From positions 24,950 to 88,949 of the forward strand of contig DQIQ01000001.1 of NCBI GenBank assembly GCA_003942085.1: a DNA stretch of 64,000 nt. The letters run 5' to 3'. The stretch comes from Thermoplasmata archaeon (GTDB taxonomy: Archaea; Thermoplasmatota; E2; DHVEG-1). Below the pieces are notes generated by a model. That model worked only from the letters and a program-made list of their open reading frames with translations, was not told the origin of the DNA and searched no databases. Shown here one piece after another: positions 23,648 to 60,686 of this stretch (position 1 is its first letter; each line of letters opens with the position of its first letter). The translations under genes were made by a program, and so were the position numbers.

Positions 23648-23845
23648 TTATTCATCTTCAAAAATAAACAGCTCATCAATGGTCGTTTGTAGGGCTTTTG
23701 CAATATCGTGGGCTAATTGAAGGGAAGGATTGTAGTTTCCCTTCTCAATGAAAAGGATCGTTTCTCGTCGGACTCCCACCTTTTTTGCTAGATCTTCTTG
23801 GGTGAGGTTGTATCGTGCCCGCAGTTCCTTGATGCGTGTTTTCAT
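23648..23845 (-). CDS. XRE-family HTH transcriptional regulator.
   Basis: [39 protein letters not shown] is a Cro/C1 HTH. Confidence 0.8.
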
Positions 23846-23847
23846 AA

Positions 23848-24261
23848 TTAGTTCCCTTTTCGAGCGAGATAGAGATATGATATGACGAATACAAATCCTG
23901 AGACCATCACCACGATTGCTGCGACATCCCCGCCTTTAGGTTCGTATCTGAAGAGTATGTCGAAAAGTACTGGGGTAAACACTGCGCTCCAGATCGCTGC
24001 AATAAACGCGTAGTATCCTGCCTTATAGTTGATGTTTATCAATCGTTCATCTTTTGCTGGTAATCCTTTTTGTACATTCTTTAATCGGTCCCAGACGATG
24101 TACATTGCTAAAGCAACTAGTACCAACACGATACCAACAAGTAAGATTTCGTTTAATTCAATATCACCTGCACTCTTGAGATAAAAAAACAGTGTCGTTA
24201 ATACCGCAGCGACAATTATGATGCTTAAAACAACCACTTTTTTGTCTTTCATGTTTTTCAC
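23848..24261 (-). CDS. Small 4-TM membrane protein paired with the XRE regulator.
   Basis: It has four hydrophobic helices and sits 2 nt downstream of the HTH gene, in the common XRE-plus-membrane-partner arrangement. Confidence 0.5.
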
Positions 24262-24434
24262 CTAATATTAATGTGTGTTAGTAATAACTTTTTATTATTT
24301 ATTTCTAACATTATGTTATGTAAATATAACATATACTATTTATATCTTACGCTAAAGAAAGTTGGACAAATTCTTCACAATTAACGAATGCATTATCTTT
24401 TTGTACAACAATGAATGAAAAAATCTAAAAAAAA

Positions 24435-24456
24435 GTGCGGGGGAAGGGATTTGAAC
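24435..24456 (-). repeat. att-like copy (21/22 nt) of the tRNA-Leu 3' end, followed by TTACTAGTA-type motifs.
   Basis: gtgcgggggaagggatttgaac versus the tRNA 3' end gtgcaggggaagggatttgaac. tctaatttactagta follows immediately and ggtttactagtaatctc lies 75 nt further on. Confidence 0.6.
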
Positions 24457-24907
24457 TCTAATTTACTAGTATGCTCCTCATTTTTCTCCTGATACGATAC
24501 CATCATCATTTTTGAGCGGGTTATCAACTCGAAGCTACAAAGGTTTACTAGTAATCTCTCCCTGTTATGCTGATCTAAGTATATTTTTATCAGTATAAAC
24601 ATAATCGTTCCGGTCAACTATCAGCTTGGTTTATGTCATTTATATAAGTGGTCTCATCGATGCTCCTGTCGGGATTACGTGCCAATTCTTCAGAGCCCTC
24701 GGGAGGAAGGAAGTGAAAGACTGGCATAAAACCCCTCTGGAAGAATACTTGCTGGAAGTTCAAAGCTCCCAGATGGTTTGAAAAAATTACGCGAACGTGA
24801 TAGGCAGTCCGTGGCAGTAGAAGGAGACGTTGAGTAAGTCTTCCTCGTCGTAGAAACCTTGCTCGCAAGCCTAATGTCAAGGATGAATCAGTGAGTAAAC
24901 CTGGAGT

Positions 24908-26314
24908 TTAATTTAAATTATTTATTAAAAATTTAAAACCTATCATGAACCATCGAGGGTCCTTATCTCGTAGGAATCGTTTGAGGTATCTTAACCATAA
25001 AATCGGATTGTAAAAAAACCTATTGTATCCTTTGATAGTGTACTTTATGATCTCTTTCGATGTAAAATTTCCCAGTTTTTTTGATGAGTCGGTATAAATG
25101 AAATGCCCATCTTTAGAATAACTTATTTTCCCTTCTTTCTCTGCTTCACACCATAAGTCTGAGCCGCAGACGTAACGAAGAGCTAAAAAACTCGCCATGT
25201 CTAATGGCAATGATGTCGCAAATTTTATTGTTCTTTTAATATGTTTTTCTGTTTCAATCGGAGCACCTAAAATAAACATTCCTGTTGTTAGAAAACCCAT
25301 CTTATGACTTAGTTCAATTGTTTTTACAACATCTGGAATCAAGAGTTTTTTATTGTAGTAATCGAGAACATCTTGGTTCCCTGATTCTATTCCGTAGTTG
25401 ATAATTCTCACCCCGGCTTTCTTCAGTTGAGTATATAACTCTTCATCGCCAGAATCAGCTCTCGCCTCATTTATCCATAAATCTAATTTATATTGCTTTG
25501 TTATGATGTGTTCCATTATTTTCATTATCCTTTTTTTGTCGGCGAGGAGATTGTCATCCGAAAACGCTATGGTTTCATAACCTTGTGATACAATCTCATC
25601 GATTTCGTTTATAACATTTTTTACAGATCTCTTTTGATAATACGGAATGTGCGCCTTCAAACCACAAAAACGACATCGATGCGGGCAGCCTCTCGATGTG
25701 AGTATTGATGTTACTTTACCTTTCCCAAACTTGATATTCATGATGTGCCCATAGGTATATTTTTCTGTAAGATAACGAGCTGGAAAAGGTAATTGGTCCA
25801 AGTCCTCAATTTTGTTTTTTCCTAAATTGTGAACGATTTTGTTGTTTTCTTTATAGCAAACTCCAGGTAGATTTTTTATTGGTTTGTTTAATTTAATTGA
25901 TTCCATTATTGATGCGATGACGGTTTCTCCAGGCCCTCGAACTGCGACATCTGCATTAAATTCTCTTAACGATTCTTCTGTTAAAAGCGATACGTGCGGC
26001 CCGCCTATTATAATTTTAATTTTAGGATTTCTTTCTTTAATTTTTTTAGCAATATCTAATGCAAATTGTTTATCCTGAGGTTGACTATAAACAGTGAGGC
26101 CGACGACATCGTTTTTTCCAGCTATCTCATCGATTCTGTTATCGTTTATCTGTTCAGCAGATCCATCAATGATTTCCACAATATAATTGTTCAATTCAAG
26201 GATTTTTCCCAGATATAATAATCCCAATGGGGGGAAAGATGGCTTAAATTGCATTTTTTTATTTACCGCAATTTCGTAATTACCTTTGGCACAATTGATC
26301 AATGTAATGTTCAT
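24908..26314 (-). CDS. B12-binding-domain radical SAM enzyme (second copy in the window).
   Basis: It has an N-terminal B12-binding domain (IIIGGPHVS) and LTSRGCPHRCRFCG. It lies between two att-like repeats. Confidence 0.75.
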   Translation of the reverse strand: MNITLINCAKGNYEIAVNKKMQFKPSFPPLGLLYLGKILELNNYIVEIIDGSAEQINDNRIDEIAGKNDVVGLTVYSQPQDKQFALDIAKKIKERNPKIKIIIGGPHVSLLTEESLREFNADVAVRGPGETVIASIMESIKLNKPIKNLPGVCYKENNKIVHNLGKNKIEDLDQLPFPARYLTEKYTYGHIMNIKFGKGKVTSILTSRGCPHRCRFCGLKAHIPYYQKRSVKNVINEIDEIVSQGYETIAFSDDNLLADKKRIMKIMEHIITKQYKLDLWINEARADSGDEELYTQLKKAGVRIINYGIESGNQDVLDYYNKKLLIPDVVKTIELSHKMGFLTTGMFILGAPIETEKHIKRTIKFATSLPLDMASFLALRYVCGSDLWCEAEKEGKISYSKDGHFIYTDSSKKLGNFTSKEIIKYTIKGYNRFFYNPILWLRYLKRFLRDKDPRWFMIGFKFLINNLN

Positions 26315-26504
26315 ATTAATTTTTACCTTGGATTAAAAGTATCCTTCACCATCTATATTAATATCATTGATTGAATGAAGAAGACCATTATAATTTATAA
26401 AAATTAGTTATGGAGGAAAGAGAATCATGCTTAGGTAAATGAGATTTTGTGTAAATGCTTGGTTCATAATATTTACGTGTTAGTCCAGGAGATGTTTGAG
26501 GAGT

Positions 26505-26760
26505 TTATATGCATAGCCCTCCTAATGAACAGGTATTTACGGATTCAAATCATTTTTTAGTCCTATGGCATGTTTCTCCTGGAAAAGTTGAAAATAAGTG
26601 CAGGGGAAGGGATTTGAACACTAATTTACTAGTACACTAGTATCTCGCTCCTTAAGGTATTTTGATTTTATTCAATTACTAGTAAATATCCTAATTCCAG
26701 GACTCAACTCTAAGCTTGTTACACTAGTCAGTTACCAGTTGCTTTTCTCCATCTGATGTA
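26505..26760. repeat. Non-coding copy A of a segmentally duplicated block of roughly 550 bp (the partner starts at 28585).
   Basis: About 85% identity to 28585-28813 by eye, spanning the att-like core, the TTACTAGTA motifs and the 3' end of the downstream gene. Confidence 0.6.
26598..26619 (-). repeat. att-like exact 22-nt copy of the tRNA-Leu 3' end.
   Basis: gtgcaggggaagggatttgaac, followed by actaatttactagtacactagta and later caattactagtaaat. Confidence 0.65.
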
Positions 26761-28515
26761 TTATTTGTAACCAATAATAAGAAGTGGATGATACTCACTG
26801 TATTCTTTTGAGTGGTAGCATGAGCATTCTTGGCTCCCACTTGTGTCCACCATCCTCCATCCGTAATTAGGAGCACCGCCAAGGTAAAACAATTGGATGT
26901 CTCCAGTAAGGTTCCAGAAAACCCAAGTATTGAGCGTCGATGGCACGATTGCTAATGAAGATGGTTCTGGGTCATATGATGGTTGGGTATTCCAGGTGAC
27001 TGTTCCTTCATCCCAATCGCTGGTGACTTTATAGGCGTTCACTTGATGGCCACCAGGGTTTCCATCCGAGCTATGAAAATAGTACAGTTGAAGGGAGGCA
27101 TACTGGATGGTCACATTAGATGGAAGAGTGCTTATATTATATTTGATGAGTCCGTCCAATTCCAACCAAGAGATAGAAATGTGAGATCTGATATCAATCG
27201 GATCACTGGTCCCTGCATTACTATTAGGACTTACTTCTGAAATTGTGGCATCATCAGTTGGTTCAAGGACTACGGTATTTTCAGAACTAGTCCTGAATGA
27301 AAACATTTTTTTTGACCAGTACCTTCCATCGGTGACATTCACAAACCACGTATAAGAGGTAAAATAATCAAGGCCACTGATAGGAACAGTGTATCGACCG
27401 TTGCCGACGCCAGTCCCAGCTCCTGATCCGATATCTGGTTGTGTCTCAACCGTCCAATTCATCAGATCCCCCTGATAATCGGTCAAATCAAAACTCACAT
27501 TTGACGTAGATATTGGTACAAACTCAGCGTTTTGGTTTGGTGACGGATTCCTAATTAATGGAAACAACGTCTCTGTAGTAAATGTGCGTGTTCTCCCCAC
27601 CGGCGTCCCCGAAGTATCCCCTTCGTAGATCAGGATCAACCAAGAATATGTGGTGCCGTTCTGCAACGGATGAACAATGGGAATGGTGTAGGTTCCATTT
27701 GGTATCAAAGTAGCGGTTCCACCACCGATGTCCGGACTTGTTGTGACCTTATAACTCATGAGATCACCTTCAATATCGTGGATTTTAAAACTAAGCTCGG
27801 TGAGGGAAAGAGAAACGTTTTGTTCTCCATCTGCAGGTGAAATATCGGAAATATATGGGAATTGGTTATTTTGATTTAGATACCACTTACAGCCAAGATG
27901 ACTAGCAATTTTCTCTATTGATTCAATGATAAGAGCCCCGATAGTTTCGCATAGATAAAGATCCCATCGCCACCCACTTAATAACATATACGCGCCCACA
28001 GCATACAAAGGAATCATAAGTGTGCAAATTATTGGGAAATGCCAACTTGATGCATCCTTACTTTCACAATCGCATCCTGAGTTTGACAACTGCATTATGT
28101 CTTCTTGTAATTTAACGTTCTTTTCTATGACAGCATTTATTTCTTGTTGTAATTCAGGATTAATCAATTGATGTGCCCGGATCATTGATTGAATCCTTGA
28201 TTTACTAGAAAACTTTGAGAGAACCAACCCGATCAAATACATTCGTTTTAGTTGATTCTTTGTTAAAACAGGAATCTCTGATGTTGGGGATATTCCTCTA
28301 CTCATCTGGGATTTGAGAATGATTCTCTGGATCTCTCTGTTATTTGTTATATCCAAGATGGTTTGGAATAAAAGCTCTCTCTGATTGACTGTTTCTTTTT
28401 TGGCTTGTCGATGTGATGTTTGAACCGTCTGAAATCCAACAACATTGCTCAACGAAGCAAGAATGAGAACAACAACGGCAACAATACTGACTCCAATCAG
28501 AGGATACTTCTTCAT
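26761..28515 (-). CDS. Surface protein with an N-terminal anchored CDCE module, two Ig-like repeats and a C-terminal LPSN...VTWNTxP (DNRLRE/CBM-like) module.
   Basis: N-terminal anchor MKKYPLIGVSIVAVVVLILASL, CDCE, a hydrophobic segment, a repeated GDLMxxxVxTxPDIGxG...Y(T/S)W motif, many NxS/T sequons, and a C-terminal STLPSNVTIQYASLQLYY...VTSDWDEGTVTWNTQPSY...HPLLIIGYK. Confidence 0.6.
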   Translation of the reverse strand: MKKYPLIGVSIVAVVVLILASLSNVVGFQTVQTSHRQAKKETVNQRELLFQTILDITNNREIQRIILKSQMSRGISPTSEIPVLTKNQLKRMYLIGLVLSKFSSKSRIQSMIRAHQLINPELQQEINAVIEKNVKLQEDIMQLSNSGCDCESKDASSWHFPIICTLMIPLYAVGAYMLLSGWRWDLYLCETIGALIIESIEKIASHLGCKWYLNQNNQFPYISDISPADGEQNVSLSLTELSFKIHDIEGDLMSYKVTTSPDIGGGTATLIPNGTYTIPIVHPLQNGTTYSWLILIYEGDTSGTPVGRTRTFTTETLFPLIRNPSPNQNAEFVPISTSNVSFDLTDYQGDLMNWTVETQPDIGSGAGTGVGNGRYTVPISGLDYFTSYTWFVNVTDGRYWSKKMFSFRTSSENTVVLEPTDDATISEVSPNSNAGTSDPIDIRSHISISWLELDGLIKYNISTLPSNVTIQYASLQLYYFHSSDGNPGGHQVNAYKVTSDWDEGTVTWNTQPSYDPEPSSLAIVPSTLNTWVFWNLTGDIQLFYLGGAPNYGWRMVDTSGSQECSCYHSKEYSEYHPLLIIGYK

Positions 28516-28584
28516 CCTTTTCTTCCTATATGAAAAATAAAGACCTCTTGTCTATTTAAAATCTTCCTTCCAAGTAATTTACCT

Positions 28585-28813
28585 GTATTTAGGAGTTCAA
28601 ATCATTTTTTAGTCTCATGGCGATTTTCTTCTGGGAAAAGAGAAAAAAAGTGCAGGGGAAGGGATTTGAACACTAATTTACTAGTATACTAGTATCTCTC
28701 TCCTCAGGGAGATTTTGATTTTATTAAATTACTAGTAAGTATTCTAATTTCAGCGCCCGACTGTTGGCTTGTTACGTTAGTCAGTTAGCTGTTGTTTTTC
28801 TTAATCTGAAGTA
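28585..28813. repeat. Non-coding copy B of the segmental duplication.
   Basis: See 26505-26760. The similarity continues into 28814-29119. Confidence 0.6.
28650..28671 (-). repeat. att-like exact 22-nt copy of the tRNA-Leu 3' end.
   Basis: gtgcaggggaagggatttgaac, followed by actaatttactagtatactagta and aaattactagtaag. Confidence 0.65.
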
Positions 28814-29119
28814 TTATTTATAACCGATAATAAGAAGAGGATGAAACTCACTATAGTCTTTTGAGTAGAAGCACGAGCATTTCTGAGTTCCACTCGTGTC
28901 CATCATCCTCCATCCGTAATTGGGAGCGCTACTATTAACAAACAATTGGACGTCTCCAGTAAGGTTCCAAAAAACCCAGCTATTAATCGTCGCTGGCATG
29001 ATAGCAAATGAAGATGGTTCTGTGACATAGGACGGTCGGGTATTCCACGTGACGTTTTTTTCATTCCAATCACTCGTAATTCGATATGCGTTCACCTGAT
29101 GTCCGCTGGGGGTTCCCAT
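28814..29119 (-). pseudogene. Detached C-terminal LPSN/VTWNTxP-module fragment, probably the frameshifted 3' part of the beta-helix gene upstream.
   Basis: The 101-aa ORF GHQVNAYRITSDWNEKNVTWNTRPSY...HPLLIIGYK is about 75% identical to the C-terminus of the 26761-28515 product. It has no signal peptide and sits one frame off, 8 nt after the stop of 29128-30144. Confidence 0.45.
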
Positions 29120-29127
29120 TCAAGTTT

Positions 29128-30144
29128 TCATTGTAAAACATTTTCATATACGTTTATTGATATATAATAAGGTTCTTGAACTGGTGTTAGGTCGAATTCA
29201 AAGGAAAGGAGAGGTAGTGGAATCCAAAGGAAAGCTAAAAAATAAGAAAATAGAAAAATGACTATATCACCTCGGATGGGTTTCGGAGTAGTTTTATTCC
29301 AATCACTCCAATAATTGCTCTCCCAGTGTTGTTTATATTTTATGAGACTAGGGGATCCAAGGAGACTTTGGTACTTCAGAAAGGAGGCATGAACCTTATT
29401 ATCGATAAAATTATTTAAACGTACTGTGACTCCTCGACAATTTGCACAATATACCCCTTCTTCTAGGCTCTCTCTGAATTCATTATGATGAATATCAATC
29501 GATCCTTCGTCAACCACATCTATTCCAACGCTATTTTTTATGAAGACGTTATGATGGATTGAACAATTATTACTATCGATAACACGACACCCGCCGCCAT
29601 TGCTGATGAAAATATTGTTAAAAAAGGAGGTGTTGAAGCAATCGTACATCGTCACCCCGATCGAATTATTCACAATAATCATATCATGGACGATAATATC
29701 ATCGATCCGGCTGATTCCAGTTGGTTCGAATATATGAACACCTGCTCCAGGATACGTGCCAGTACCGCAATTTTGTACTGTAAATCCACTGATATGCACT
29801 CCATCTGTTAAAACACAAACTACATCCCACTTACGGGTCCCATTGATGATCGTCGTGTTCTTATCTTCACCAATGAGGCTAATTGATTTAAAAATTTTTA
29901 CACATTCAGAGCTATATGGCGTCTGATTATAGATTCCATGATATACATAAACTGTATCACCATCGCTTGCGTTATCGACAGCATCCTGTATAGTGCTGTA
30001 ATTTCCAGGTCCATTCCCGCCAACATACAACCAATTCCCTCGTGATGTCGGTAAAGGTTTCTCAGCATCCTGGGCAGTCGTTGGAATGATACAGGTTCCG
30101 ACGAACAAGAGAATGATGCTAACCGCCAAACATTTCCTTTTCAT
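29128..30144 (-). CDS. Secreted right-handed parallel beta-helix (pectate-lyase-fold) protein. The C-terminus is probably disrupted.
   Basis: A signal peptide is followed by PbH1-like repeats (NNSIGVTMYDCFNTSFFNNIFISNGGGCRVIDSNNCSIHHNVFIKNSVGIDV). The last 40 residues or so (IVIFLFSYFLAFLWIPLPLL...) look like out-of-frame read-through. Confidence 0.55.
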   Translation of the reverse strand: MKRKCLAVSIILLFVGTCIIPTTAQDAEKPLPTSRGNWLYVGGNGPGNYSTIQDAVDNASDGDTVYVYHGIYNQTPYSSECVKIFKSISLIGEDKNTTIINGTRKWDVVCVLTDGVHISGFTVQNCGTGTYPGAGVHIFEPTGISRIDDIIVHDMIIVNNSIGVTMYDCFNTSFFNNIFISNGGGCRVIDSNNCSIHHNVFIKNSVGIDVVDEGSIDIHHNEFRESLEEGVYCANCRGVTVRLNNFIDNKVHASFLKYQSLLGSPSLIKYKQHWESNYWSDWNKTTPKPIRGDIVIFLFSYFLAFLWIPLPLLSFEFDLTPVQEPYYISINVYENVLQ

Positions 30145-30192
30145 TGATTTACCTCTTTATTCTATGTCTAGAATGGGTTAGGCTACAATTAA

Positions 30193-30816
30193 TTACCACA
30201 AACAATTAAGTGTCGTTTCTATATAAGAAATTATGGCAATTAAGAAATAAATACCTGCAAGGGCTAACCAAATAGCAAATATTGTTAACGGCCACAGTAG
30301 TGCACATATAACTGGGTAATGCCAGACTGTTGTATTATTGTTTTCACAATCACATTGTAAGCTCGATAAATCTGTCATTTCGCCCTTGAGTAAAACATCT
30401 TTTTCAATAACAACGGATATTTCTTTCTGCATCCTTTGATTATTCACTTGATATTGCTCAACCATCGGATGTATTCTTGTTTTACTGATAATCTTTGAAA
30501 GCATCAAACCAACAAGATACATATGGTTGAGTTGGTTCTTCGTTAAAGCAGGAGTGTTGAATATAGAGAATTTTACGTCTGGATTGAACAATCCTTCTCT
30601 GTTTATCTGGGATTTGAGTACAATTTCCGGGATATCTTTATTATTCGCAATATCAACGATGGTTTGGAATAACAACTCTTTCTGGTTGATCTCTTCATTT
30701 ATGATTTTCTGATTTGATGATTGAAACGTCTGATAACCAACAACATTGGTCAACGAACCAAGCACAAGAAGAATCACAGCACAGATGCTTATTCCAATCA
30801 AAGGTTTTGTATTCAT
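30193..30816 (-). CDS. Stand-alone paralog of the N-terminal anchored CDCE module.
   Basis: 207 aa, about 45% identical to residues 1-200 of the 26761-28515 product (LIGISICAVILLVLGSLTNVVGYQT...ELLFQTI...TKNQL..MYL.GL.LSK...CDCE..WHYP), ending in a hydrophobic tail. Confidence 0.5.
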   Translation of the reverse strand: MNTKPLIGISICAVILLVLGSLTNVVGYQTFQSSNQKIINEEINQKELLFQTIVDIANNKDIPEIVLKSQINREGLFNPDVKFSIFNTPALTKNQLNHMYLVGLMLSKIISKTRIHPMVEQYQVNNQRMQKEISVVIEKDVLLKGEMTDLSSLQCDCENNNTTVWHYPVICALLWPLTIFAIWLALAGIYFLIAIISYIETTLNCLW

Positions 30817-30947
30817 TACTTTCCGCCCTTATAAATACTTTATAACAATAATCCCCTATAAAAACGTTTATTTCATTATTGATTAAGTCTCTGCAAACAT
30901 TATAGTATCTGGAGGCAAGAATTAACAGAGTTGTTTTTTTTAATTTG

Positions 30948-32849
30948 TTAGAAGAACTTCCATACTTCGATTCCAACCCATGCCCATCTGCCATCATTTG
31001 AATATGCTCCAACCTCAATTGAATGTCCTCCAAATTCTTTTTCTGACCATGTCCATTCGTATGGTTCTTCAGTATCAGTAAATTGTGGATTGGTATCGAT
31101 AAAAAATATCACTTCTCGTATACCTACATCTTCCTGTATCGCTTCAGCTCTGATGGAAATCTTTCCGATAATCACTGGGTGTAGTATTAAAGGTAAAAGT
31201 TTGATGTTGAATAAATACAAGCCTATTTCTGGGCGTAAAATTCGCACCGTTGGCAGGGAAGTTCCTACTGTCACATTTGCAGTATCGCTACTGGCATTCC
31301 CCTCACCATCAATCAACGTAAGCGTTGCGATGTATTCACCTGGTCTGGTGTAGGTATGCGTCGGGTGCTCTAAATCTGAGGTGTTCCCGTCACCGAACTC
31401 CCATTGGAACGTATACGGGAGTGCTCCGCCAAATGTTGTGCTCATAAAAGAGATTGATTCCAAAGCATATCCACTGTAGGGTCCACCTGCATCTACAGAT
31501 AAAGACGCGTCGCCGAACGCATGGAGATACCCCCATGTAAGTGTACCATCATGATTCCTCCATGAAGATCCAACATAGAGATTACCGTCTCCGTCAATAC
31601 ACGGTGATGAAAGCACTGCAACGTTGGAAATCAGTTTCTTCCATCTGATTGTCCCGTCTGGGTTCACCGCCACAAGGCTGACCCCTGCACTCACATAAAT
31701 CGTGCCATCCGCGGAGACCGCTGGTGCCGTCCCATAGATATCTCCACCGACATCAACAACCCATTTCAAGGTCCCATTTGGATAGAATGCTCTAAGCTGT
31801 TCAGTCCCGACATACAACGTCCCATCAGACGCAACCGCTGCTAATGCAGCCGCAACCTCTTCACCAGTGCTCGCCTGCCAAATCAACGTCCCATTGGGGT
31901 TGAGGGCGTAGAGATACCCGTCAAACGAGGGAATATAAATCGTGCCATCAGGGGCAATAGAAGGATGCCCTTTGATATCCCCGCCGGTAAGATACCGCCA
32001 GCGGAGCGTGCCATTAGGGTTGAGAGCATAAAGATAATCATCAGCGGAACCGACGTAAATGGTACCGTCCTCGCCGATAGCAGGGTCTGAGGTTACGTAG
32101 TATCCTGTCTCATAATGCCATTTTTCGACCCCGTTAGGATTTATCGCATAGAGACAACCACCCGAGTGACCCAGATAAATCGTCCCGTCATCACCTATCG
32201 CCGGGGAAGAATGAAACTCTCCACTACGGTACAAATCCCATATTAATGAACCGTTCTGGTCAAGAGCGGAGAGACGGCCATACCAGTCTCCAACGTAGAT
32301 GGTCCCATCTTCTGCAATAGCTGGCGTAGACCATATTACTCCAGGTATTTTGTAATACCATTTCTGCGTCCCATTAGGATATATTGCATAGAGGTTATGA
32401 TCTGCCCCCATACTCCCAAAATAGATGATACCGTTCTTGTCGACAATTGCGCCTGATTCAATTGTTCCTGCATCTTTCAATGTTTTATACCGCCATTTCT
32501 CCGTTCCCGGGTTGTCCGCGGTGCTGATTGGACTTTGACAGGTATGATATGTATCATGGCAGCTCATCGGCCATGAGGAGTTCTGCAGACCACCGGTTTC
32601 CCTGCCACGATCATCTCCTCCAACGGATTCATGGATCAATGTTTCAGCTTGATATGCTGGTTCATCCGCTGTTGAGGTACTATCACAGTTGATGCTCCAT
32701 GAGTTTTCATATGCGCGATAATCAGCTTTATTGAATGTCTGTTGTATTGGATCATCCAGATGAGTTGAAAGCATCGAAACAGATGCTGGGACAAGAAGGA
32801 CGAATAATAAACTGGTTGCTAGAAGGGTTCTCCAAATAGTATTGTTCAT
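30948..32849 (-). CDS. Secreted PQQ-like beta-propeller protein with C-terminal PKD and Ig-like domains.
   Basis: A signal peptide is followed by roughly eight DGT(I/L)Y(V/I)G...LYA(L/I)NPNGT..W repeats, then a PKD domain (DAGGPYSGY...YTFQWEFGDGNTS...HTYTRPGEY). Confidence 0.65.
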   Translation of the reverse strand: MNNTIWRTLLATSLLFVLLVPASVSMLSTHLDDPIQQTFNKADYRAYENSWSINCDSTSTADEPAYQAETLIHESVGGDDRGRETGGLQNSSWPMSCHDTYHTCQSPISTADNPGTEKWRYKTLKDAGTIESGAIVDKNGIIYFGSMGADHNLYAIYPNGTQKWYYKIPGVIWSTPAIAEDGTIYVGDWYGRLSALDQNGSLIWDLYRSGEFHSSPAIGDDGTIYLGHSGGCLYAINPNGVEKWHYETGYYVTSDPAIGEDGTIYVGSADDYLYALNPNGTLRWRYLTGGDIKGHPSIAPDGTIYIPSFDGYLYALNPNGTLIWQASTGEEVAAALAAVASDGTLYVGTEQLRAFYPNGTLKWVVDVGGDIYGTAPAVSADGTIYVSAGVSLVAVNPDGTIRWKKLISNVAVLSSPCIDGDGNLYVGSSWRNHDGTLTWGYLHAFGDASLSVDAGGPYSGYALESISFMSTTFGGALPYTFQWEFGDGNTSDLEHPTHTYTRPGEYIATLTLIDGEGNASSDTANVTVGTSLPTVRILRPEIGLYLFNIKLLPLILHPVIIGKISIRAEAIQEDVGIREVIFFIDTNPQFTDTEEPYEWTWSEKEFGGHSIEVGAYSNDGRWAWVGIEVWKFF

Positions 32850-33036
32850 AGGTTTTTTCTTCCGTTCAATACATATATCGGATATTCTATATATAGATTT
32901 CCATTTGATAAACTCAATTTTTTATTGATACTGTTCTCTTTTTCGCATAAAATAGCTCATTAAAAGTTTGAAAAAAAAACAAACTATTTAAATTAATTTA
33001 AATTACCATTTCATATTAATTGGGGAGTGAAAAAAT

Positions 33037-36000
33037 ATGCGAGGAAAAAAAATTGTAGCGTTTTTAGTATGCGCGCTAATGATTGCGAGCGGGATAATGC
33101 TGATGCCGAAGAACACGGATGTCCGAGCAGATGCATATCAACATCCAAGCGGAGAAAATGAAATAGGCCTCAATACCACTTATGTCTGGGAAATGGTAAA
33201 GCGGTTTTGCAATGTGACACGTGATACTGATTGGTCGCATGAGAATAACATCCCTAAAGGGCGATCATGGGCGACCGCAGGGGAGAACTACACCATTGAT
33301 AATATTTTAAAATATCAATGGGAGAATTTCACTAATCCTGCATTTGAATTTCAAAAATTACTCATCGGCCCCATCAATGGTAGTACTAGATTATATTCAA
33401 ACAAGATTGTCATACAAAATTTTGGTCTGACGACTGAAAATCCTTCAGTAACCATACCAATCAGTGAAATGTTTCCCATCGGTATCGGTGTCCGTCCAGA
33501 TAATGATTTAAACAAAACATTTGGGTTTAACAATTCAAGGATAGAGAAAGTAGAACTCTTTGCACGTGATTTTTTAGGGGGATCATATTTTCCTGATCAC
33601 CTGAATGTACCCACTCAGTTCTTAAACGATTATAAATTAGTTTATGGTTCTCCTATCTATCTTGACGAGAATGACGAAGTACCAGAGAACCAGGATGGCT
33701 TTGTGTTCATCATGAATGAAACAGAAGACTGCGAGGATAAACTAGATAATATCACTGATGCCTCGGCATGTATCTTAATTAAAGGCAATTCTTTCTACAA
33801 TTACGAACAGGCGGATGAGAAACAGTTTTCGATCTTTCGCGTGGATGAAACCAATGATAATCTTTCAGAAGTGGTATCGGAAATAGAAAATGGATCAGTG
33901 TTCTTTGTAGATAATATTTATGATTCAGATATGTTGGTATTCACTAATTTAAGTAATGATACATGTATCCCGGAAGGTGATGATTTTGTTGGGGTTGTAC
34001 AAAGAACAGCCCCCTCAGATCCACAATCGTTTGAGCCTAGACCCTTTCTTGAGTATGTTTTTGGAAATGTCAATGGATATTACTATGATTATCTACGATT
34101 AGTCATTTTTAACAATCTTTGGTATATATATCATAACAGAAGAGATGAAGATTATTCGAAAGGTTGCGTGGGTTTAATTCTATCTGATTATTCTAATACT
34201 ACTCATTTTATGACACATACAGAGAAGGGTTGGGGTTGGTTCTCAGGAGCATTCAGCGACAGATGGTGGTTGCCAATGTTTTCAGTAAACAAATCCGTCG
34301 GGAAATTTTTACTGGATAATATAAATACTGTGAGCGTCAATGGTTCCATCGAACAGGAATATAGATGCCAAACAACTACAGAACCTGGTGTGATAAGCAA
34401 TAATTTTATCGGGTATCTAGATGTTACACAGAATCGTTCTGATCCGTATGTCATTCTTTCAAACAGAATTGATGGCTGGTGGGGACAAACACCAGGAGAC
34501 AGCGGAGTAGGTGGCGCGATTCTTCTCGGTATTGCCAAATATTTTAATGATTATAATATCAAACCCAATAGTAACTTGAGGTTTCTCTTTACCACCGGGG
34601 AGGAATACGGCATGCGTGGCGCCCAGCATTATAACGACAGCCATGCAAATGATACTATCACACGATGGATCGGGTTTGATCAACTGGGATTTTATTATAC
34701 GACATCCGATGATACAATAAATTTAACAGTAAATGTGTTAGATAATACGTCAAAGGCCATCATTAAAACGATTGCAAATGATACACATTACGTTGATCGA
34801 ACAGGTTACGGTATCGGGGTTGATATCCCTGATGATTATGGCTCTGAAGATAAAGTTTTTAGTACCCGGAAAGATCCATTTTGTAATACGACTTGTTTTG
34901 GGAGAGACAATTCATCCAGGTGGGATGACTACCATCGTTCGGGTGAAAACTATTCCGAGGGTGATAGTCTGAATCATACCGATCGAAATGATGTCAACGT
35001 AACGTTCGAGTTAGCATGGAACGTGATAAAATATTGCACGGTAAATCCAGATTGTTGGTTCAACGAACCAGCCACCTACACCATAGAGGATTCCCCATAC
35101 GATACCGATACCTATAATGATTCTATTAACGTAACAGTATCAGTAAAATCAGTGCTTCCAAATGATAAAGTCAGAGTGAATGCGACGTTGAAAAGCTGGC
35201 CTTCAAACGACACAGTCTTCTGGAAAAACTATGATTTCAACGTCACTTCAGAGACAACTCAAAAGACATTCACCGTTACCCTGCCGCCCAACTCAACTGG
35301 GGCAACAAGCGGAAATTATACCCTGTCACTCGCACTGTTAAACTCGACAGGCAGGATCAACGACATCGCTCTCAATACCAGAGAATATAATGACACCGGC
35401 ACCCAGACAGGTCATGTATATCTCTGTCCACGGGGAAATTCTCTACCATATAAACCCAATGACATCACCGGTCCGTTTACGGTGCAAATATTACACCCGG
35501 CGAACTTTACTACGTCTGCGACAGATACGAATCAGGATCAATTGCAGTATCAATGGGATTGGAATGTACTCCTTGGAGATTTGTTTGAAACCACCGAGGT
35601 TGGTCCATATGATTCCGATGATAACTGCACTACGGAGCATACATACTACGGATGGGGACCACGAGTCATACAGGTGAGAGCACGGGATGATTACGGGTAC
35701 CTGTTTGATGGCACCCCCCTAGGATGGAATCGATATGGCAATTGGAGCGATGATACTTGGTCAGAACCATTCTTGATATATGTAAGTTTTTTCACCGATT
35801 TTAGCATGTCATGCACCTCTCTTTCATCCGCTGTAAACGCTCAATCTACCACAGAGTTGCCATCCATTCAACAAATAAATTCGACGTATGACGCTCTCAT
35901 ATTTGGTGGCAATGAGCCTCATTCCTATCAATGGATGTTCAATCATGAGCGATACGCGGAGAAACAAAAAACCGTGTATTATCAGTTCGAGGAAACAGGC

Positions 36001-39000
36001 GATTATACAGTCTCTTTAAATGTCATTGATAATGACGGGTATTCTGAAGAATTTTCTGTCAATGTCTCCGTGGTGAATTTAAGCGCAAGCTTCAACCTCA
36101 GCGTCCCGTCACCATATGCGAACCCGGATGAGGAGATTGATTTCACGGACACGTCAGCGGCAGCCAGTGGATACCAGATGACAAATTGGACATGGGATTT
36201 CGATGACGGTACCTGCTCCTACAATCGGAATGCCACTCATGTGTTCATGGAATCCGGAACGTATAACGTCTCTCTCACGGTCACAGACAACCAAACACAC
36301 ACGGACATCACATCCCAGTGTATCCTTGTGACCATCGATGAGACCCCGCCGCAGATCCAGCAGGTCGCAGATGAGATTTCCGTTGATGACCGCTGGCTGG
36401 TTGTCTCCCTTGCAGGGTATTTCGTTGACTCGGAAAGCGGTATTAAAAACGCCTCTGTGAACATCACGTATCCAGATGGGTCTCATGGGAATTTCACTAT
36501 GATGCATGTGTTCAACACGATTTACGGCTATGTCTTTAACGACACCGAGGCTCCTGGTCAGTACAATTATACGGTCTGGGTGACCGACTATGAAAATAAT
36601 ACGAACAGCGCTACCGGATATTCTTTCACAATCCCGACTCCGCCGGTCCTTTTATATGCGACAACAACTCCTGCCAATAGCACCGTTTCCAATGACCCAT
36701 GGACAGATGTCAACGTGACCATCCTTGATCCTCTGAACACCTCCGCGTTCATCGACTGGGACCACAGCCTCAAGGGTTACTGGCCGATGGATTCCTATAA
36801 TGACACCGGTGTGTATGATAACTCCACCTATGACAATTTCGGGACATTCCAAAGTGGATTGAACAACAGAAATATTATACCAGGGAAATACGGGAAAGGA
36901 CTGGAGTTCGATGGAATCGATCATTACGTTGATGTCGGCACCAGCAATAGTTTGGATCTTGGCAGCGGTGATTTCACGTTCATGACCTGGGAGAAAAGCC
37001 ATGTATCCTCTTACTCGAAGAAAGCGATGATTCTCACCAACAGTCCGGCGGGCGAGAGCTGGAAAGGCTATGGTTTCGGTGTTGCCAATCATGCGTATCT
37101 TTTTGTCTCTCAATCATCAGGAAATAATGTGACGGTGCAGGGGACTACTGATGTGACCGACAACACCTGGCATCATATCGCCTATGTGAACCATGAAGGA
37201 GACTATTCAATATATGTCGATGGCGCGTTTGACGCTAATGGGATGTTGACTTCAGAAAAAAATATCACGAACACACAGCACACCTACCTCGCCTATGATG
37301 GACATACATCGAACTGGTGTTTCTTCGATGGTATGCTTGATGAGCCGCAGCTCTACAACCGAGTCCTCAGCAGAGAGGAGATCAACGCCTCCTATAACAA
37401 TGGGCTGAACCATTTGTATCATAATTTCACTGGACTTCCTGATGGCACGTATAGTTATTATGCACATGCGATTGACACTTCGGGAAATCAGAGTACAACA
37501 GAGACACGACAAGTAACCATTGATACCACGCCTCCAACGATTATAAATGTCAACGCTTCACCTCATACCGTCGGATTCGGGTACAATATCACAATCTCTG
37601 CGGATGTAATCGACAATTATAGCGGTGTTGATCTTGTTAACATCCAGATTACTTATCCTGGTGGTATAGGTAATTCGAGCAATCACACAATGACCCATGT
37701 CACTAATGATACGTATCAGTATGTGTTCAATGATACGTGGCTGACCGGGCAGTACAACCTTACCATCTGGGCTGTGGATAACTCCAATAATAGTAACAGC
37801 AGCGGCGGGCATCATTTCCATGTCTCCGTAACGGCGACCATCAGCATCGCCACCCTGAAGAACAGCTACAGCGGCAGCCAATACATCAACATCACCGACC
37901 CTCCGAACCCACCTGAGGACTATACACTGGTTGGTCGGGGACTCACCTGGAATACCTATTACAATGTATCCTCTGGTGAAAACATTCTCGAAACATACCA
38001 AGGACCAGTGAATTACCAAGAAGACAACAACACCTGGAACCCAATCAACGTCTCCCTAAAACAGTTAACAATTGATAATCCTGCTTACAACTATGGGTAT
38101 CAGACAGGGAATGATCGTGGGTTATTCGGTGTCTACTTCAAACCCAATATCCAGAGCGACTGGCCCGTCGCATTCACCTACAACAGATCGAACAACCCCA
38201 CTACCAACGTCATCAGAAGTAAGCTCGTCGGTGTAGGATACATTGATCCACAGAGCAACTGGGCGTATCAGTATCTGCAGAACGTGCAGAGCAGCCAAGG
38301 ACAAACAAATGACAACTCGATAACCTACTCAAATGTCTTTACTGGCACCGATGTCACCTGGAGCTACGGCAACACCGAACTCAAAGAAGAGATCACACTC
38401 AGCAATGCGACGAAGACTGTATTGCAGAACCACCCACCATCACAGTACGGCCTTAACAACCAAAGCTCGTATCTCGTGTTCATCACTAAATTGGATCATC
38501 AGAACCTCGGCATGTATAATGCCTCAGGAATGCTCACTGGAAACGTAACGATCTCCAACGCAGGGGTTGATTTCAAGGATGCACTAGGACATTTCAAATG
38601 CGCCCTGCCACTTGGCGAGGCGTACGAACTGAATAACGAATCCATGAGACAGAAACTGACCTACCGCATCGTACACCTGAACGGCAACACCTACTTGCTT
38701 TCCGGGTTGAAGGTCTCAGATTTGAACGCGATGACGTTCCCAGTGGTGATAGACCCAACTTTAACTGTGTATTCAACCTCCAGCGACGGTTATATCTCTA
38801 ACTCTGGCACCAACTACAATACAGTACGAACCGCATCGTCCGGTACCGTCAACAGTTCCGGGACATACATCACAATCGGACAGAAGAAGGGTCCTGGTCA
38901 GCCTGCTACGTATTACATCTACCGAGGATTCGTGTTCTTCAACACCTCCGCATTACCATCGAACGCGTACCTCGATACAGCAACACTCGCCCTGTACAAG

Positions 39001-39645: not shown

Positions 39646-39712
39646 CGAAGTAATTCTCAGCGATTATAAACAACGGAAGTCAGGCATATAAACCCCGCCT
39701 GATTTTCCTCAA

Positions 39713-39720
39713 TTTTTTTT
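39713..39720 (+). terminator. Oligo-T (T8) archaeal-type terminator after the giant gene.
   Basis: cctcaatttttttttag lies about 70 nt after the stop. Confidence 0.3.
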
Positions 39721-39767
39721 AGTTATTGATTAATAGACTTTATTGTGCAAAACAAACTAGTAAATTA

Positions 39768-39853
39768 GTGCAGGGGAAGGGATTTGAACCCCCGAACCTC
39801 TGCAGGAACAGATCTTGAGTCTGTCGCCGTAGACCAGGCTTGGCTACCCCTGC
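39768..39853 (-). tRNA. tRNA-Leu, anticodon CAA, with a long variable arm and no encoded CCA.
   Basis: The reverse strand reads GCAGGGGTAGCCAAGCCTGGTCTACGGCGACAGACTCAAGATCTGTTCCTGCAGAGGTTCGGGGGTTCAAATCCCTTCCCCTGCAC. The 7-bp acceptor stem is GCAGGGG/CCCCTGC, the anticodon loop CTCAAGA, the T-loop TTCAAAT and the variable arm 14 nt. It was folded by hand. Confidence 0.8.
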
Positions 39854-60239: not shown

Positions 60240-60686
60240 CTACTCCTGTTTGATTTGTTCTGCTATAGAAACAACAGTAACGTTCACCACGATTCGCTTC
60301 CCTGCCAACAGATGATTCATATCCAAGGTGAATGTCTGTTCGTCCATCGCAACAATCGTCCCAATAAAAGATCTCCCGGTCGGTGCATCGATCTTTATAC
60401 GAGAGCCAACCTCTAGCGGGATATCAGGTTTGAACACCGATTTTGGCACTTTGATGATAAGGTCATCCACATGAGGACCGAACGCATCTTCAGCCTCAAG
60501 GGTCACCACCTTCGAATCGCCCTCAGTCATATCATGCAATTCTTCCTCTATGCGAGGAAAGAATTTCCCTTCGCCCACCACAATCTCAAGAGGGTTCTCC
60601 GCATCGTTCTTATAACAAAGCTCCCCCGACTCCAATTTAGCCTCACATAAAAGCCGAACCGTATCCCCGTCCTTTATACTCTTCAT
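60240..60686 (-). CDS. FKBP-type peptidyl-prolyl cis-trans isomerase.
   Basis: A short archaeal FKBP: DGDTVRLLCEAKLESGEL...LEIVVGEGKFFPRIEEEL. Confidence 0.75.
   Translation of the reverse strand: MKSIKDGDTVRLLCEAKLESGELCYKNDAENPLEIVVGEGKFFPRIEEELHDMTEGDSKVVTLEAEDAFGPHVDDLIIKVPKSVFKPDIPLEVGSRIKIDAPTGRSFIGTIVAMDEQTFTLDMNHLLAGKRIVVNVTVVSIAEQIKQE

What the first reader, a model, noticed from the sequence alone, without database searches (positions are those of the whole stretch)
26620..26700. Palindromic TTACTAGTA(A) motifs beside every att-like core and beside the tRNA
Each tRNA-fragment copy is followed on the element side by ctaatttactagta, and 40-75 nt further by a second copy (caattactagtaaat, aaattactagtaag, ggtttactagtaatctc). 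The intact tRNA carries the inverted form aaactagtaaattag directly at its 3' flank (39753-39767). The 11 kb segment is therefore bounded by inverted copies of this motif (28672-28686 and 39753-39767). That pattern looks like arm-type recombinase or regulator binding sites, or short terminal inverted repeats.
Basis: seen in the sequence. Interest (0 to 1): 0.6.

Follow-up and report, generated by a model that had tools for sequence, protein, structure and literature searches.

The report
Palindromic end-sites of archaeal tRNA-linked cassettes
The TTACTAGTA motifs are real, conserved, two-fold-symmetric sites at the ends of small gene cassettes that have piled up, without any recombinase gene of their own, behind a tRNA-Leu gene in uncultivated sediment archaea; this looks like a little-known way of swapping secreted-enzyme genes.

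Summary
CTAATTTACTAGT follows each of three copies of the tRNA-Leu(CAA) 3' end and lies inverted against the intact tRNA. TTACTAGTA has 9 hits against 0.2 expected, all in this region.

The window comes from a Thermoplasmata MAG. About 30 related metagenome contigs show the same design. They carry tandem arrays of 0.24-11 kb units behind tRNA-Leu. Each unit is bounded by a 21-23 bp copy of the tRNA T-loop-to-3' end, followed 2 nt later by the motif. Further copies lie at about +19, +55/+90 and +135. An inverted composite copy, TACTAGTA-N7-GTTCAAATC, lies on the other arm.

Closely related contigs share flanks but differ in cassettes. The same cassette also sits in different contexts, with homology ending at the cores. 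Other junctions carry different symmetric 8-mers (TACATGTA, TAATATTA) at the same offset.

No integrase, Cas1 or serine recombinase was found in the ORFs scanned by Pfam in the window and in part of the related loci.

The best reading is that these are binding sites for a dimeric protein in att-type end modules of integrase-less cassettes mobilised in trans. The recombinase is unknown. Operator, transposon-end and folded-DNA readings are not excluded.

The parts
39768..39853 (-). Intact tRNA-Leu(CAA), the anchor (attB-derived end) of the array
   Evidence: ARAGORN. Rfam tRNA, 52 bits.
24434..24456 (.). Core copy 1: the tRNA T-loop-to-3'-end fragment AGTGCgGGGGAAGGGATTTGAAC, with 1 mismatch
   Evidence: (family D4).
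26597..26619 (.). Core copy 2, exact
28649..28671 (.). Core copy 3, exact
39767..39789 (.). Core inside the intact tRNA gene
24458..24471 (.). Site 1 (CTAATTTACTAGTA) of the left-end module of unit 1, type A
   Evidence: The module is 89% identical over 170 nt to UBA33 locus L001, while the neighbouring gene is 71% identical.
24544..24555 (.). Site 2 (TTTACTAGTAAT) of unit 1
   Evidence: The site-2 columns are 99% identical across the A, A2 and A3 modules, against 72% for the other columns.
24584..24597 (.). Degenerate site 3 (TTTTTATCAGTAT). Relatives have TTTTTACTAGTAT here
   Evidence: Alignments.
26621..26642 (.). Sites 1 and 1b of unit 2, type B (CTAATTTACTAGTAcACTAGTA)
26674..26687 (.). 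Site 2 of unit 2 (AATTACTAGTAAAT)
28673..28694 (.). Sites 1 and 1b of unit 3, type B (CTAATTTACTAGTATACTAGTA)
28726..28740 (.). Site 2 of unit 3 (AAATTACTAGTAAGT)
39754..39768 (.). Right-end site abutting the tRNA (AAACTAGTAAATTAG), of the 'RE-near' type
   Evidence: The same type is seen as GAATTTGCAAGTAAATTCA|core in L004, and with 13 nt of spacer in L002 and L006.
26528..26551 (.). Degenerate right-end composite site (aACagGTA-N7-aTTCAAATC) of unit 1, 47 nt before core 2
   Evidence: Intact versions occur in L005, L020, L003 and L011.
28580..28603 (.). Degenerate right-end composite site (TACctGTA-N7-GTTCAAATC) of unit 2. Together with core 3 and site 1 it forms a roughly 125-nt imperfect palindrome
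   Evidence: (I4). The ssDNA fold has z = -2.5.
24457..26596 (.). Unit 1. Cargo is a B12-binding radical SAM gene at 24908-26314 (-)
   Evidence: Pfam.
26620..28648 (.). Unit 2. Cargo is a 584-aa CBM96 surface protein at 26761-28515 (-)
   Evidence: Pfam. The same cassette lies in other contexts in L003, L011, L012, L020, L104 and L105.
28672..39766 (.). Segment 3, composite. It holds a disrupted CBM96/NosD gene (28814-30816), a PQQ-propeller/PKD protein (30948-32849) and a 2202-aa PKD/LamG/M28 protein (33037-39645)
   Evidence: Pfam. No internal cores were found.

Best explanation
The motifs are dyad-symmetric protein-binding sites. The local consensus is TTTAC-TA-GTAAA, and the wider family is WWTAC-NN-GTAAA. 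They are built into the end modules of small, integrase-less gene cassettes. These cassettes were inserted one after another by site-specific recombination into the T-loop-to-3'-end segment of tRNA-Leu(CAA) in sediment Thermoplasmata. Each insertion restores the tRNA and pushes a 21-23 bp copy of its 3' end outward, which is the 'core'. In the circular, attP-like form of a cassette the core would be bracketed by these sites. One sits 2 nt from the core on the left arm, followed by two or three more within about 140 nt. An inverted one sits on the right arm, either abutting the core or as TACTAGTA-N7-GTTCAAATC about 62 nt away. I infer that a dimeric DNA-binding protein supplied in trans binds these sites to assemble or direct the recombination complex. 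That protein could be the recombinase itself or an accessory or directionality factor. The crossover itself lies inside the core. What is shown: the anatomy, the conservation, the strain-level cassette turnover and the absence of a cis recombinase in the ORFs scanned. What is inferred: protein binding, action in trans and the type of recombinase.
For: 1. There are 37 left junctions on 25 metagenome contigs plus the UBA33 MAG, all with different outer flanks. All have core + N + CTAATTTACTAGT, though this part was the search pattern. The further sites were not in the pattern. Of 96 TACTAGTA occurrences in 240 kb, 86 lie within -130..+200 of a core, a zone that is 8% of the sequence, with peaks at -80, +10, +50, +90 and +130.
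2. Site-2 columns are 99% identical, against 72% for the other module columns, across the diverged A, A2 and A3 modules. The unrelated type B module keeps the sites at other spacings.
3. The spacing TACTAGTA-N7-GTTCAAATC is constant in the left end and in both right-end types, while the N7 sequence differs.
4. At the same offset other junctions carry different symmetric 8-mers: TACATGTA, TAATATTA and TGTTAACA. TTACCGGT occurs about one base further out. The symmetry is kept while the bases change.
5. Evidence of mobility: L020, L013 and L005 share a left flank that is 96-99.8% identical but carry different first cassettes. The type B cassette is 89-93% identical between L020, L012 and L003, in different contexts, and the homology ends at the cores. 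Arrays hold 2-7 cores. Gene-less units of 240-395 nt exist.
6. The base N between core and motif goes with the cassette type. It is A in 6 of 6 independent type B junctions and in 5 of 27 others (p = 4e-4), which places the crossover in the core and not in ACTAGT.
7. No integrase, Cas1 or serine recombinase domain was found in the 50 window ORFs scanned. These were all non-nested ORFs of 120 aa or more except two at the window end (60240-60686, 62951-63973), plus four shorter ones. None was found in about 16 ORFs of related loci either (Pfam). A tyrosine-recombinase box II pattern finds nothing in the window or the loci.
Against: No recombinase or binding protein was identified anywhere, so the mechanism is inferred from anatomy alone. 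No circular cassette or empty attB was observed. The review of archaeal tyrosine recombinases that I read never uses the term 'arm-type', and it has a section on 'unescorted' archaeal recombinases (PMC8371274). A multi-site att would therefore be unusual for archaea. Site spacing is not consistently in helical phase. Conservation could partly reflect recent common descent of the modules. In type B cassettes the right-end site lies about 25 nt upstream of a TATA-like box, which is compatible with a regulatory role. Only a subset of the ORFs in the related loci was scanned with Pfam.
Confidence: 0.5

Rival explanations
1. The sites are operators for a dimeric transcription factor that co-regulates the cassette genes, which are mostly secreted enzymes. 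They sit near the cores only because the promoter or leader module travels with each cassette.
For: In 'A-long' cassettes the sites lie in a conserved leader of about 430 nt upstream of the cargo gene. That leader holds TATA-like boxes and a conserved signal-peptide start. In type B cassettes the right-end site is about 25 nt upstream of a TATA-like box of the cargo gene. Palindromic 12-16-mers are typical operators. An XRE gene lies at 23648-23845.
Against: Site 1 keeps a fixed 2-nt offset from the core in all module types, whatever the gene orientation. In type B the left-end sites lie downstream of a convergent gene. Gene-less units of 240-395 nt keep all the sites. The window's tRNA-proximal site lies after the stop of the 2202-aa gene and abuts the tRNA. 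No XRE or other regulator is conserved next to arrays in the scanned ORFs.
Confidence: 0.17
2. The motifs are terminal inverted repeats of non-autonomous transposons, casposon-like or of an unknown family, that home to the tRNA T-loop. The tRNA fragments would then be long target-site duplications.
For: There are inverted 13-nt ends around the 11 kb segment. Most cassettes have 24-nt imperfect inverted ends, GATTTGAAC-N7-TACTAGTA. The multi-site left end recalls Tn7 or Mu ends (own knowledge). The family 2 casposase of A. boonei recognises the T-loop motif TCAAATC in its tRNA target, and M. mazei casposons pile up in tandem at tRNA-Leu (PMC6614799; PMC4779613).
Against: The direct repeats are 21-23 bp exact plus about 37 bp that are only about 75% alike. 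Casposon TSDs are 14-15 bp and start at the last 4 nt of the tRNA. The casposon TIR end TCCCC is absent. An identical core with diverged outer flanks fits attP x attB recombination better than a fresh duplication. No Cas1, PolB or DDE transposase lies in the cassettes; the only DDE gene is an IS66 insertion in L004.
Confidence: 0.12
3. The functional unit is the whole imperfect palindrome of about 125 nt at each cassette junction. It would fold as single-stranded DNA, like integron attC sites, and the TACTAGTA blocks would be stem segments rather than duplex binding sites.
For: The intact junction L003:11255-11400 folds as ssDNA with z = -3.7, and 0 of 200 shuffles fold as well. Window 28575-28700 gives z = -2.5. 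The arrays consist of mostly single-gene cassettes. The symmetric centre changes also preserve self-complementarity.
Against: A junction is made of the right end of one cassette and the left end of the next, so its arms cannot co-evolve. The N7 segments are poorly complementary, 2/7 for type B. There is no attC R''/R' consensus, and the order of the GTT../..AAC boxes is reversed. No intI lies within 24 kb on either side. Left ends alone, and the window's tRNA junction, are not significantly structured. Any duplex inverted repeat gives such z-scores.
Confidence: 0.1
4. The motif has no function of its own. It would be a passenger in a recently spread repeat module, conserved only by common descent.
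For: Many modules are 75-93% identical overall. The search pattern enforced site 1.
Against: Sites outside the search pattern are far better conserved than their surroundings. They recur in non-homologous modules, type A versus type B. Symmetric variants occupy the same offset in distant junctions. The window's decayed copies (26528-26551, 28580-28603) show what neutral decay looks like.
Confidence: 0.08

Closest known systems
tRNA-targeting integrative elements of tyrosine integrases with the crossover in the T-loop-to-3'-end segment, and their tandem accretion. Examples are cis-mobilisable, integrase-less CIME-type elements of streptococci, and tycheposon islands of Prochlorococcus with partial-tRNA repeats
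   Same: Direct repeats equal the tRNA 3' part, and the tRNA is restored at one end. New elements push older ones outward. Integrase-less units are flanked by att sites. Cargo turns over at strain level (tycheposon preprint; CIME and T-loop sublocation from own knowledge).
   Different: No integrase-bearing member of the family was found in about 30 contigs. The units are very small, 0.24-3 kb and mostly one gene. The end modules are long and conserved, with several palindromic sites. The hosts are archaea, for which the review I read does not mention arm-type sites.
Integron gene-cassette arrays (attI/attC, IntI), including the integrons reported in Archaea (PMC9668308)
   Same: Arrays of mostly single-gene cassettes are separated by imperfectly palindromic junction sites of about 125 nt. 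Cassette content differs between close relatives.
   Different: There is no intI next to the array and no attC R''/R' consensus. Every junction contains a tRNA 3'-end copy, and the array is anchored on a tRNA gene. Cassettes seem to carry their own promoter or leader.
Family 2 casposons at tRNA 3' ends (A. boonei tRNA-Pro, M. mazei tRNA-Leu)
   Same: Archaeal hosts. The target is the tRNA 3' end, with recognition of the T-loop motif TCAAATC. Tandem insertions occur. The ends are inverted.
   Different: Casposon TSDs are 14-15 bp starting at the last 4 nt of the tRNA, whereas here there is a 21-23 bp core starting in the T-loop. The TIR terminus TCCCC is absent. There is no Cas1 or PolB.
Xer-dependent elements (IMEX, pdif modules)
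   Same: There is no element-encoded recombinase. Modules are bounded by inverted palindromic sites. The full site CTAATTT-ACTAGT-AAATTAG has an arms-plus-6-bp-spacer geometry.
   Different: Arms of 7 nt rather than 11 nt. The arrays lie at a tRNA and not at dif. The co-segregation test places the crossover in the tRNA core, not in ACTAGT. The dif site of this lineage is unknown.

Membership tests
Tyrosine-integrase att sites in tRNA genes (T-loop class) | Direct repeats identical to the tRNA segment from the T-loop to the 3' end, with the intact tRNA at one end | tested here: met
   There are 21-23 bp cores at 24434, 26597, 28649 and inside the tRNA at 39767-39789. The same holds in the related arrays.
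Tyrosine-integrase att sites in tRNA genes (T-loop class) | An integrase gene inside the element, next to an att site | tested here: not met
   No Phage_integrase or other recombinase domain in the 50 window ORFs scanned, nor in about 16 ORFs of related loci (Pfam). A box II pattern gives 0 hits in the window and loci.
Tyrosine-integrase att sites in tRNA genes (T-loop class) | Repeated arm-type sites flanking the core that are bound by integrase or accessory proteins | tested here: inconclusive
   Repeated conserved sites are present on both arms. Binding cannot be tested with these tools.
Tyrosine-integrase att sites in tRNA genes (T-loop class) | Crossover inside the identity block | tested here: met
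   The base after the core co-segregates with the cassette type (p = 4e-4). Homology between the same cassette in different contexts ends at the cores. This evidence is indirect.
Casposon | Cas1 casposase and PolB in the element | tested here: not met
   Pfam.
Casposon | A 14-15 bp TSD overlapping the last about 4 nt of the tRNA, with TIRs directly adjacent | tested here: not met
   The repeat is 21-23 bp and starts in the T-loop.
Integron | An intI gene and attI adjacent to the array | tested here: not met
   No recombinase within 24 kb on either side of the array.
Integron | attC sites with R'' (RYYYAAC) ... R' (GTTRRRY) and an imperfect palindrome of 57-141 bp | tested here: not met
   The imperfect palindrome of about 125 nt is present. 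The boxes read GTTCAAATC ... GATTTGAAC, which is the reversed order and off consensus (read directly from the sequence). The window array region has no Rfam match other than the tRNA.
Integrase-less att-flanked elements in tandem arrays (CIME / degraded tycheposon-type islands) | Units flanked by att repeats, lacking recombination genes, accreted in tandem at one tRNA, and variable between strains | tested here: met
Integrase-less att-flanked elements in tandem arrays (CIME / degraded tycheposon-type islands) | A related autonomous element with an integrase that uses the same att site | tested here: not met
   None in the 25 metagenome loci, the UBA33 locus, the PFK-anchored contigs, or viral contigs. 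The collections were only partly searchable.
Xer-dependent modules (IMEX / pdif) | The crossover occurs in the spacer of a dif-like palindrome | tested here: not met
   The co-segregation of N places the crossover left of the palindrome.
TIR transposon / MITE | Terminal inverted repeats plus a short (2-15 bp) target-site duplication at varied targets | tested here: not met
   Inverted ends are present, but the repeats are 21-58 bp and are always the tRNA 3' end.

The most novel reading that the evidence does not exclude
Sediment Thermoplasmata carry an integron-like gene-cassette platform of a new kind. The 3' end of tRNA-Leu(CAA) serves as the insertion point. Each cassette carries a composite site of about 125-250 bp, made of the tRNA core bracketed by WWTAC-NN-GTAAA dyads and an inverted T-loop box. 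A still unidentified recombinase, encoded elsewhere and possibly host-encoded, shuffles cassettes for secreted hydrolases, surface proteins and defence genes between strains.
Probability: 0.3. Interest if true: 0.8.

Novelty: new variant of a known kind. Interest (0 to 1): 0.6.

Why it matters
If the reading holds, these archaea exchange single genes for extracellular enzymes and surface proteins through a dedicated cassette array that has no recombinase of its own. It would also be, as far as I could find, the first archaeal att-type site with a multi-site, accessory-protein-like architecture. The motif gives a simple handle, core + WWTAC-NN-GTAAA, for finding such arrays in metagenomes. In six of the seven PFK-anchored relatives whose contigs I fetched, the contigs end at or just short of this tRNA. 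Arrays of this kind may therefore be under-represented in MAGs. The motif also provides a defined DNA bait for finding the missing recombinase.

Tried and rejected
- RNA element. The - strand fold of 26520-26765 is not significant, z = +0.86. Rfam finds only the tRNA. RNAalifold of the left-end module merely pairs site 1 with site 2, with no covariation.
- Free attP or a viral source. Viral-contig scans gave no relevant match: IR-core-IR, core+motif, and the composite site and 16-mer palindrome, whose hits were chance hits in AT-rich viruses. The first metagenome scan, with the tRNA-side junction, found nothing.
- Casposon membership. Rejected on TSD length, TIR terminus and gene content.
- SSV-type 'suicidal' integrase split by integration. 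No integrase fragments or recombinase motifs flank the cores.
- Crossover inside the ACTAGT palindrome (Xer-like). Disfavoured by the co-segregation of N.
- Reaching the recombinase through PFK-anchored contigs of relatives. These contigs stop at the tRNA or the array. Complete arrays were recovered in L104-L106 and also lack a recombinase.
- XRE gene as the binder. It is not conserved beside other arrays.
- Split-tRNA or retro-element origin of the fragments. The fragments start inside the T-arm and lack CCA.

Full report
**Observation.** The window holds one tRNA gene, tRNA-Leu(CAA), at 39768-39853 on the - strand. Its last 21-23 nt read AGTGCAGGGGAAGGGATTTGAAC on the + strand. This sequence recurs at 24434, 26597 and 28649. 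Each copy is followed after one variable base by CTAATTTACTAGTA, at 24458, 26621 and 28673. The reverse complement, ACTAGTAAATTAG, abuts the intact tRNA at 39756-39768. A second TTACTAGTAA lies 42-74 nt further in. TTACTAGTA gives 9 strand-hits against 0.21 expected. TACTAGTA occurs 7 times in the array zone and never in the other 48.5 kb of the window. It occurs once in 209 kb of control DNA from relatives, and that one hit is beside a tRNA-Leu.

**Context.** The host is an archaeon: the window encodes NMD3, geranylgeranyl reductase, MvhD with a NiFe hydrogenase, and PFOR. Public records label identical or near-identical proteins Thermoplasmata or Ca. Thermoplasmatota MAG. Between the outermost core and the tRNA lie these genes:
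- a B12-binding radical SAM gene;
- a CBM96 surface protein;
- a disrupted CBM96/NosD paralogue;
- a PQQ-propeller/PKD protein;
- a 2202-aa PKD/LamG/M28 protein.

No integrase, Cas1, serine recombinase or transposase domain appears in the 50 window ORFs I scanned with Pfam. These were all non-nested ORFs of 120 aa or more except two at the window end (60240-60686, 62951-63973), plus four shorter ones. A tyrosine-recombinase box II pattern also finds nothing.

**Related loci.** An exact scan for TTTGAAC-N-CTAATTTACTAGT found one GTDB genome, Euryarchaeota archaeon UBA33, and 25 sediment or wetland metagenome contigs. Viral contigs gave nothing relevant. The 37 left junctions have unrelated outer flanks and conserved inner modules. 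The modules fall into families:
- types A, A2 and A3, which share about 160 nt;
- type B, as in window units 2 and 3, which is not alignable with A apart from the sites.

In UBA33 the 170-nt module is 89% identical to the window, while the only flanking region that aligns (about 5 kb away) is 71% identical.

**Anatomy of the ends.** Sites recur at set positions. Of 96 TACTAGTA occurrences in 240 kb, 86 lie within -130..+200 of a core, with peaks at -80, +10, +50, +90 and +130. The consensus from 91 sites is TTTACTAGTA(A/T)A(T)(T). Copies of ACTAGT inside genes lack these flanks. Across the diverged A, A2 and A3 modules the site-2 columns are 99% identical, against 72% for the other columns.

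Right ends are of two kinds.
- Most cassettes end with TACTAGTA-N7-GTTCAAATC, followed by about 50 nt that contain TTTCTCCTG, and then the next core or the tRNA. This is seen in L003, L005, L011, L012, L014, L016-L020, L026, L090 and L104.
- Others have a palindrome abutting the core or within 13 nt of it. L004 has GAATTTGCAAGTAAATTCA|core, L002 and L006 are similar, and the window's tRNA side is of this kind.

The window copies at 26528-26551 and 28580-28603 are decayed versions of the first kind. The 7-nt distance between TACTAGTA and the T-loop box is constant in the left end and in both variants of the first right-end kind, although the 7 bases differ. That argues for a two-part recognition site rather than base pairing.

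At the same offset after the core, other junctions carry different symmetric 8-mers: TACATGTA, TAATATTA and TGTTAACA. TTACCGGT occurs about one base further out, and there are relatives such as TTTACC(A/G)GC. The two-fold symmetry is therefore kept while the bases change.

**Evidence that the units move as cassettes.** L020, L013 and L005 share the same left flank, a UbiA gene, at 96-99.8% identity. L020 has one type B cassette before the tRNA and PFK. L005 has four different units. The type B cassette is 89-93% identical between L020, L012 and L003, which have different neighbours. The homology runs from about 25 nt before the left core to the end of the right core. The two type B cassettes in the window are as far from each other (81%) as from those in other genomes (79-83%). 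That suggests separate acquisitions rather than a local duplication. Arrays with 3-7 cores occur next to PFK in further relatives, L104-L106. Gene-less units of 240-395 nt that keep all sites also exist.

Cargo is mostly secreted or surface proteins: an S8 protease (read from its sequence), NosD, CBM96, an esterase-like alpha/beta hydrolase, and FG-GAP/PKD proteins. It also includes a radical SAM enzyme, a sulfotransferase and an AbiEii toxin. In six of the seven PFK-anchored relatives sampled, the contigs end at or just short of this tRNA.

**Where the crossover is.** The variable base between core and motif is A in 6 of 6 independent type B junctions and in 5 of 27 others (Fisher p = 4e-4). 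That base therefore belongs to the incoming cassette, and exchange happens within or left of the core rather than in ACTAGT. Around the L020 cassette the repeat is about 58 nt: the exact core plus about 37 nt of tRNA-downstream-like sequence that is only about 75% alike. An exact core with diverged flanks is what attP x attB recombination leaves. A fresh target duplication would not look like this.

**Interpretation.** The motifs are best read as binding sites for a dimeric protein within att-type end modules of integrase-less cassettes. The cassettes target the T-loop-to-3'-end segment of tRNA-Leu and are mobilised in trans. I give this 0.5.

Four rivals remain.
- Operators of a regulator of the cassette genes (0.17). 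The sites lie in a conserved leader of about 430 nt in some cassettes and near a TATA-like box in type B. Against this are the fixed offset from the core, the gene-less units and the positions downstream of genes.
- Ends of non-autonomous transposons (0.12). The A. boonei casposase also reads the T-loop motif TCAAATC. But TSD length, TIR terminus and gene content do not match.
- A folded, attC-like junction (0.1). The intact junction is an imperfect palindrome of about 125 nt with z = -3.7. But its two arms come from different cassettes, and neither the attC consensus nor intI is present.
- A functionless passenger (0.08).

**Comparison with what is known.** The closest known phenomena are tandem accretion of tRNA-integrating elements, including integrase-less derivatives (CIMEs, from own knowledge) and tycheposon islands with partial tRNAs. 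Integron arrays and casposons at tRNA-Leu are also close. The system here differs in several ways. No autonomous, recombinase-bearing member was seen in about 30 contigs. The units are very small. The end modules are long and carry several sites. The domain is Archaea, and the review I read does not mention arm-type sites there. Full-text searches for the motif and for comparable arrays in Thermoplasmatota found nothing relevant. I class it as a new variant of a known kind.

**Limits.** No recombinase, circle junction or empty site was seen. Only a subset of the ORFs in the related loci was scanned with Pfam. Binding and recombination remain untested.

Noticed in passing
L009:169-620, L001, L005 (4083-4520), L016, L003 (9458-9870), L025, L026, L017, L014 (oriented coordinates): In 'A-long' cassettes about 430 nt of non-coding leader are conserved at 81-86%, right up to the start codon and the first roughly 15 codons of a signal peptide (MKKKIIGI..LM). 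After that the cargo genes are unrelated. The leader contains a degenerate second core (TACTGGTGAAGGGATTTTAAT) 240 nt after the first, so it may be a gene-less unit fused to a cassette.
   Followed up: partly
window 24651-24745 (type A module of unit 1); same region in L006, L021, L016, L002: A conserved stretch can fold into a long imperfect hairpin (GGGATT..CCA..CTTC..GAAG..TGG..AAATCC). RNAalifold gives 24 pairs, but only one has a compensatory change. There is no Rfam match. The two small ORFs called here (24393-24617, 24614-24880) are not credible: the one scanned, 24614-24880, has no Pfam hit.
   Followed up: partly
window 28814-30816 (-): Three adjacent ORFs (207 aa N-terminal part, 338 aa NosD, 101 aa CBM96 C-terminus) look like one surface-protein gene broken by an in-frame stop (30193/30144, same frame) and a frameshift (29128/29119). 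This is a pseudogenised paralogue of the neighbouring 584-aa gene.
   Followed up: partly
C-termini of cargo proteins in L009 (586-1353), L014 (2818-3681), L016 (2140-3780), L003 (6423-9119): Unrelated secreted cargo proteins end with the same motif, ..LFERFPHAFPIL(R/L)HL(L/M)GY. It could be a lineage-specific C-terminal sorting or anchoring signal.
   Followed up: no
L081-L103 (PFK-anchored contigs of relatives): In six of the seven PFK-anchored relatives sampled, the contigs (up to 85 kb) end at or just short of the tRNA-Leu. The array therefore behaves as a systematic assembly breakpoint.
   Followed up: partly
L109 (2073 nt, SRR7428049); equals window 26605-28677: This contig is exactly one cassette period and has a 21-nt terminal overlap inside the core and motif. 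It could be a circular cassette or simply a repeat-bounded contig. The two cannot be told apart here.
   Followed up: partly
L004 (1046-2422), L011 (885-1550), L107 (17850-19193): An IS66-family transposase sits just outside a core in L004. An AbiEii toxin gene is the cargo of a 1.4-kb unit in L011. In the distant relative L107 another IS66 gene and a MazE gene lie near a degenerate core.
   Followed up: no
L015:4135-4180 and L022:1220-1260 (oriented): The same motif follows 3' fragments of other tRNAs (GCGCTGGGAGTGGGATTTGAAC, ATGCGGGGGGTGGGATTTGAAC). In L015 it is a perfect 20-bp palindrome, CTAATTTACTAGTAAATTAG. Only the T-loop part, GGGATTTGAAC, is shared, so the system may use other tRNAs in other lineages.
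   Followed up: no
L011:2172-2260 versus window 28651-28760: One type B left end lacks exactly the roughly 50 nt between site 1 and site 2, a deletion between the two direct TTACTAGTA copies.
   Followed up: no
window 24000-31000: The array zone has lower G+C (0.35-0.43) than the flanks (0.40-0.51), in line with foreign or fast-evolving DNA.
   Followed up: no
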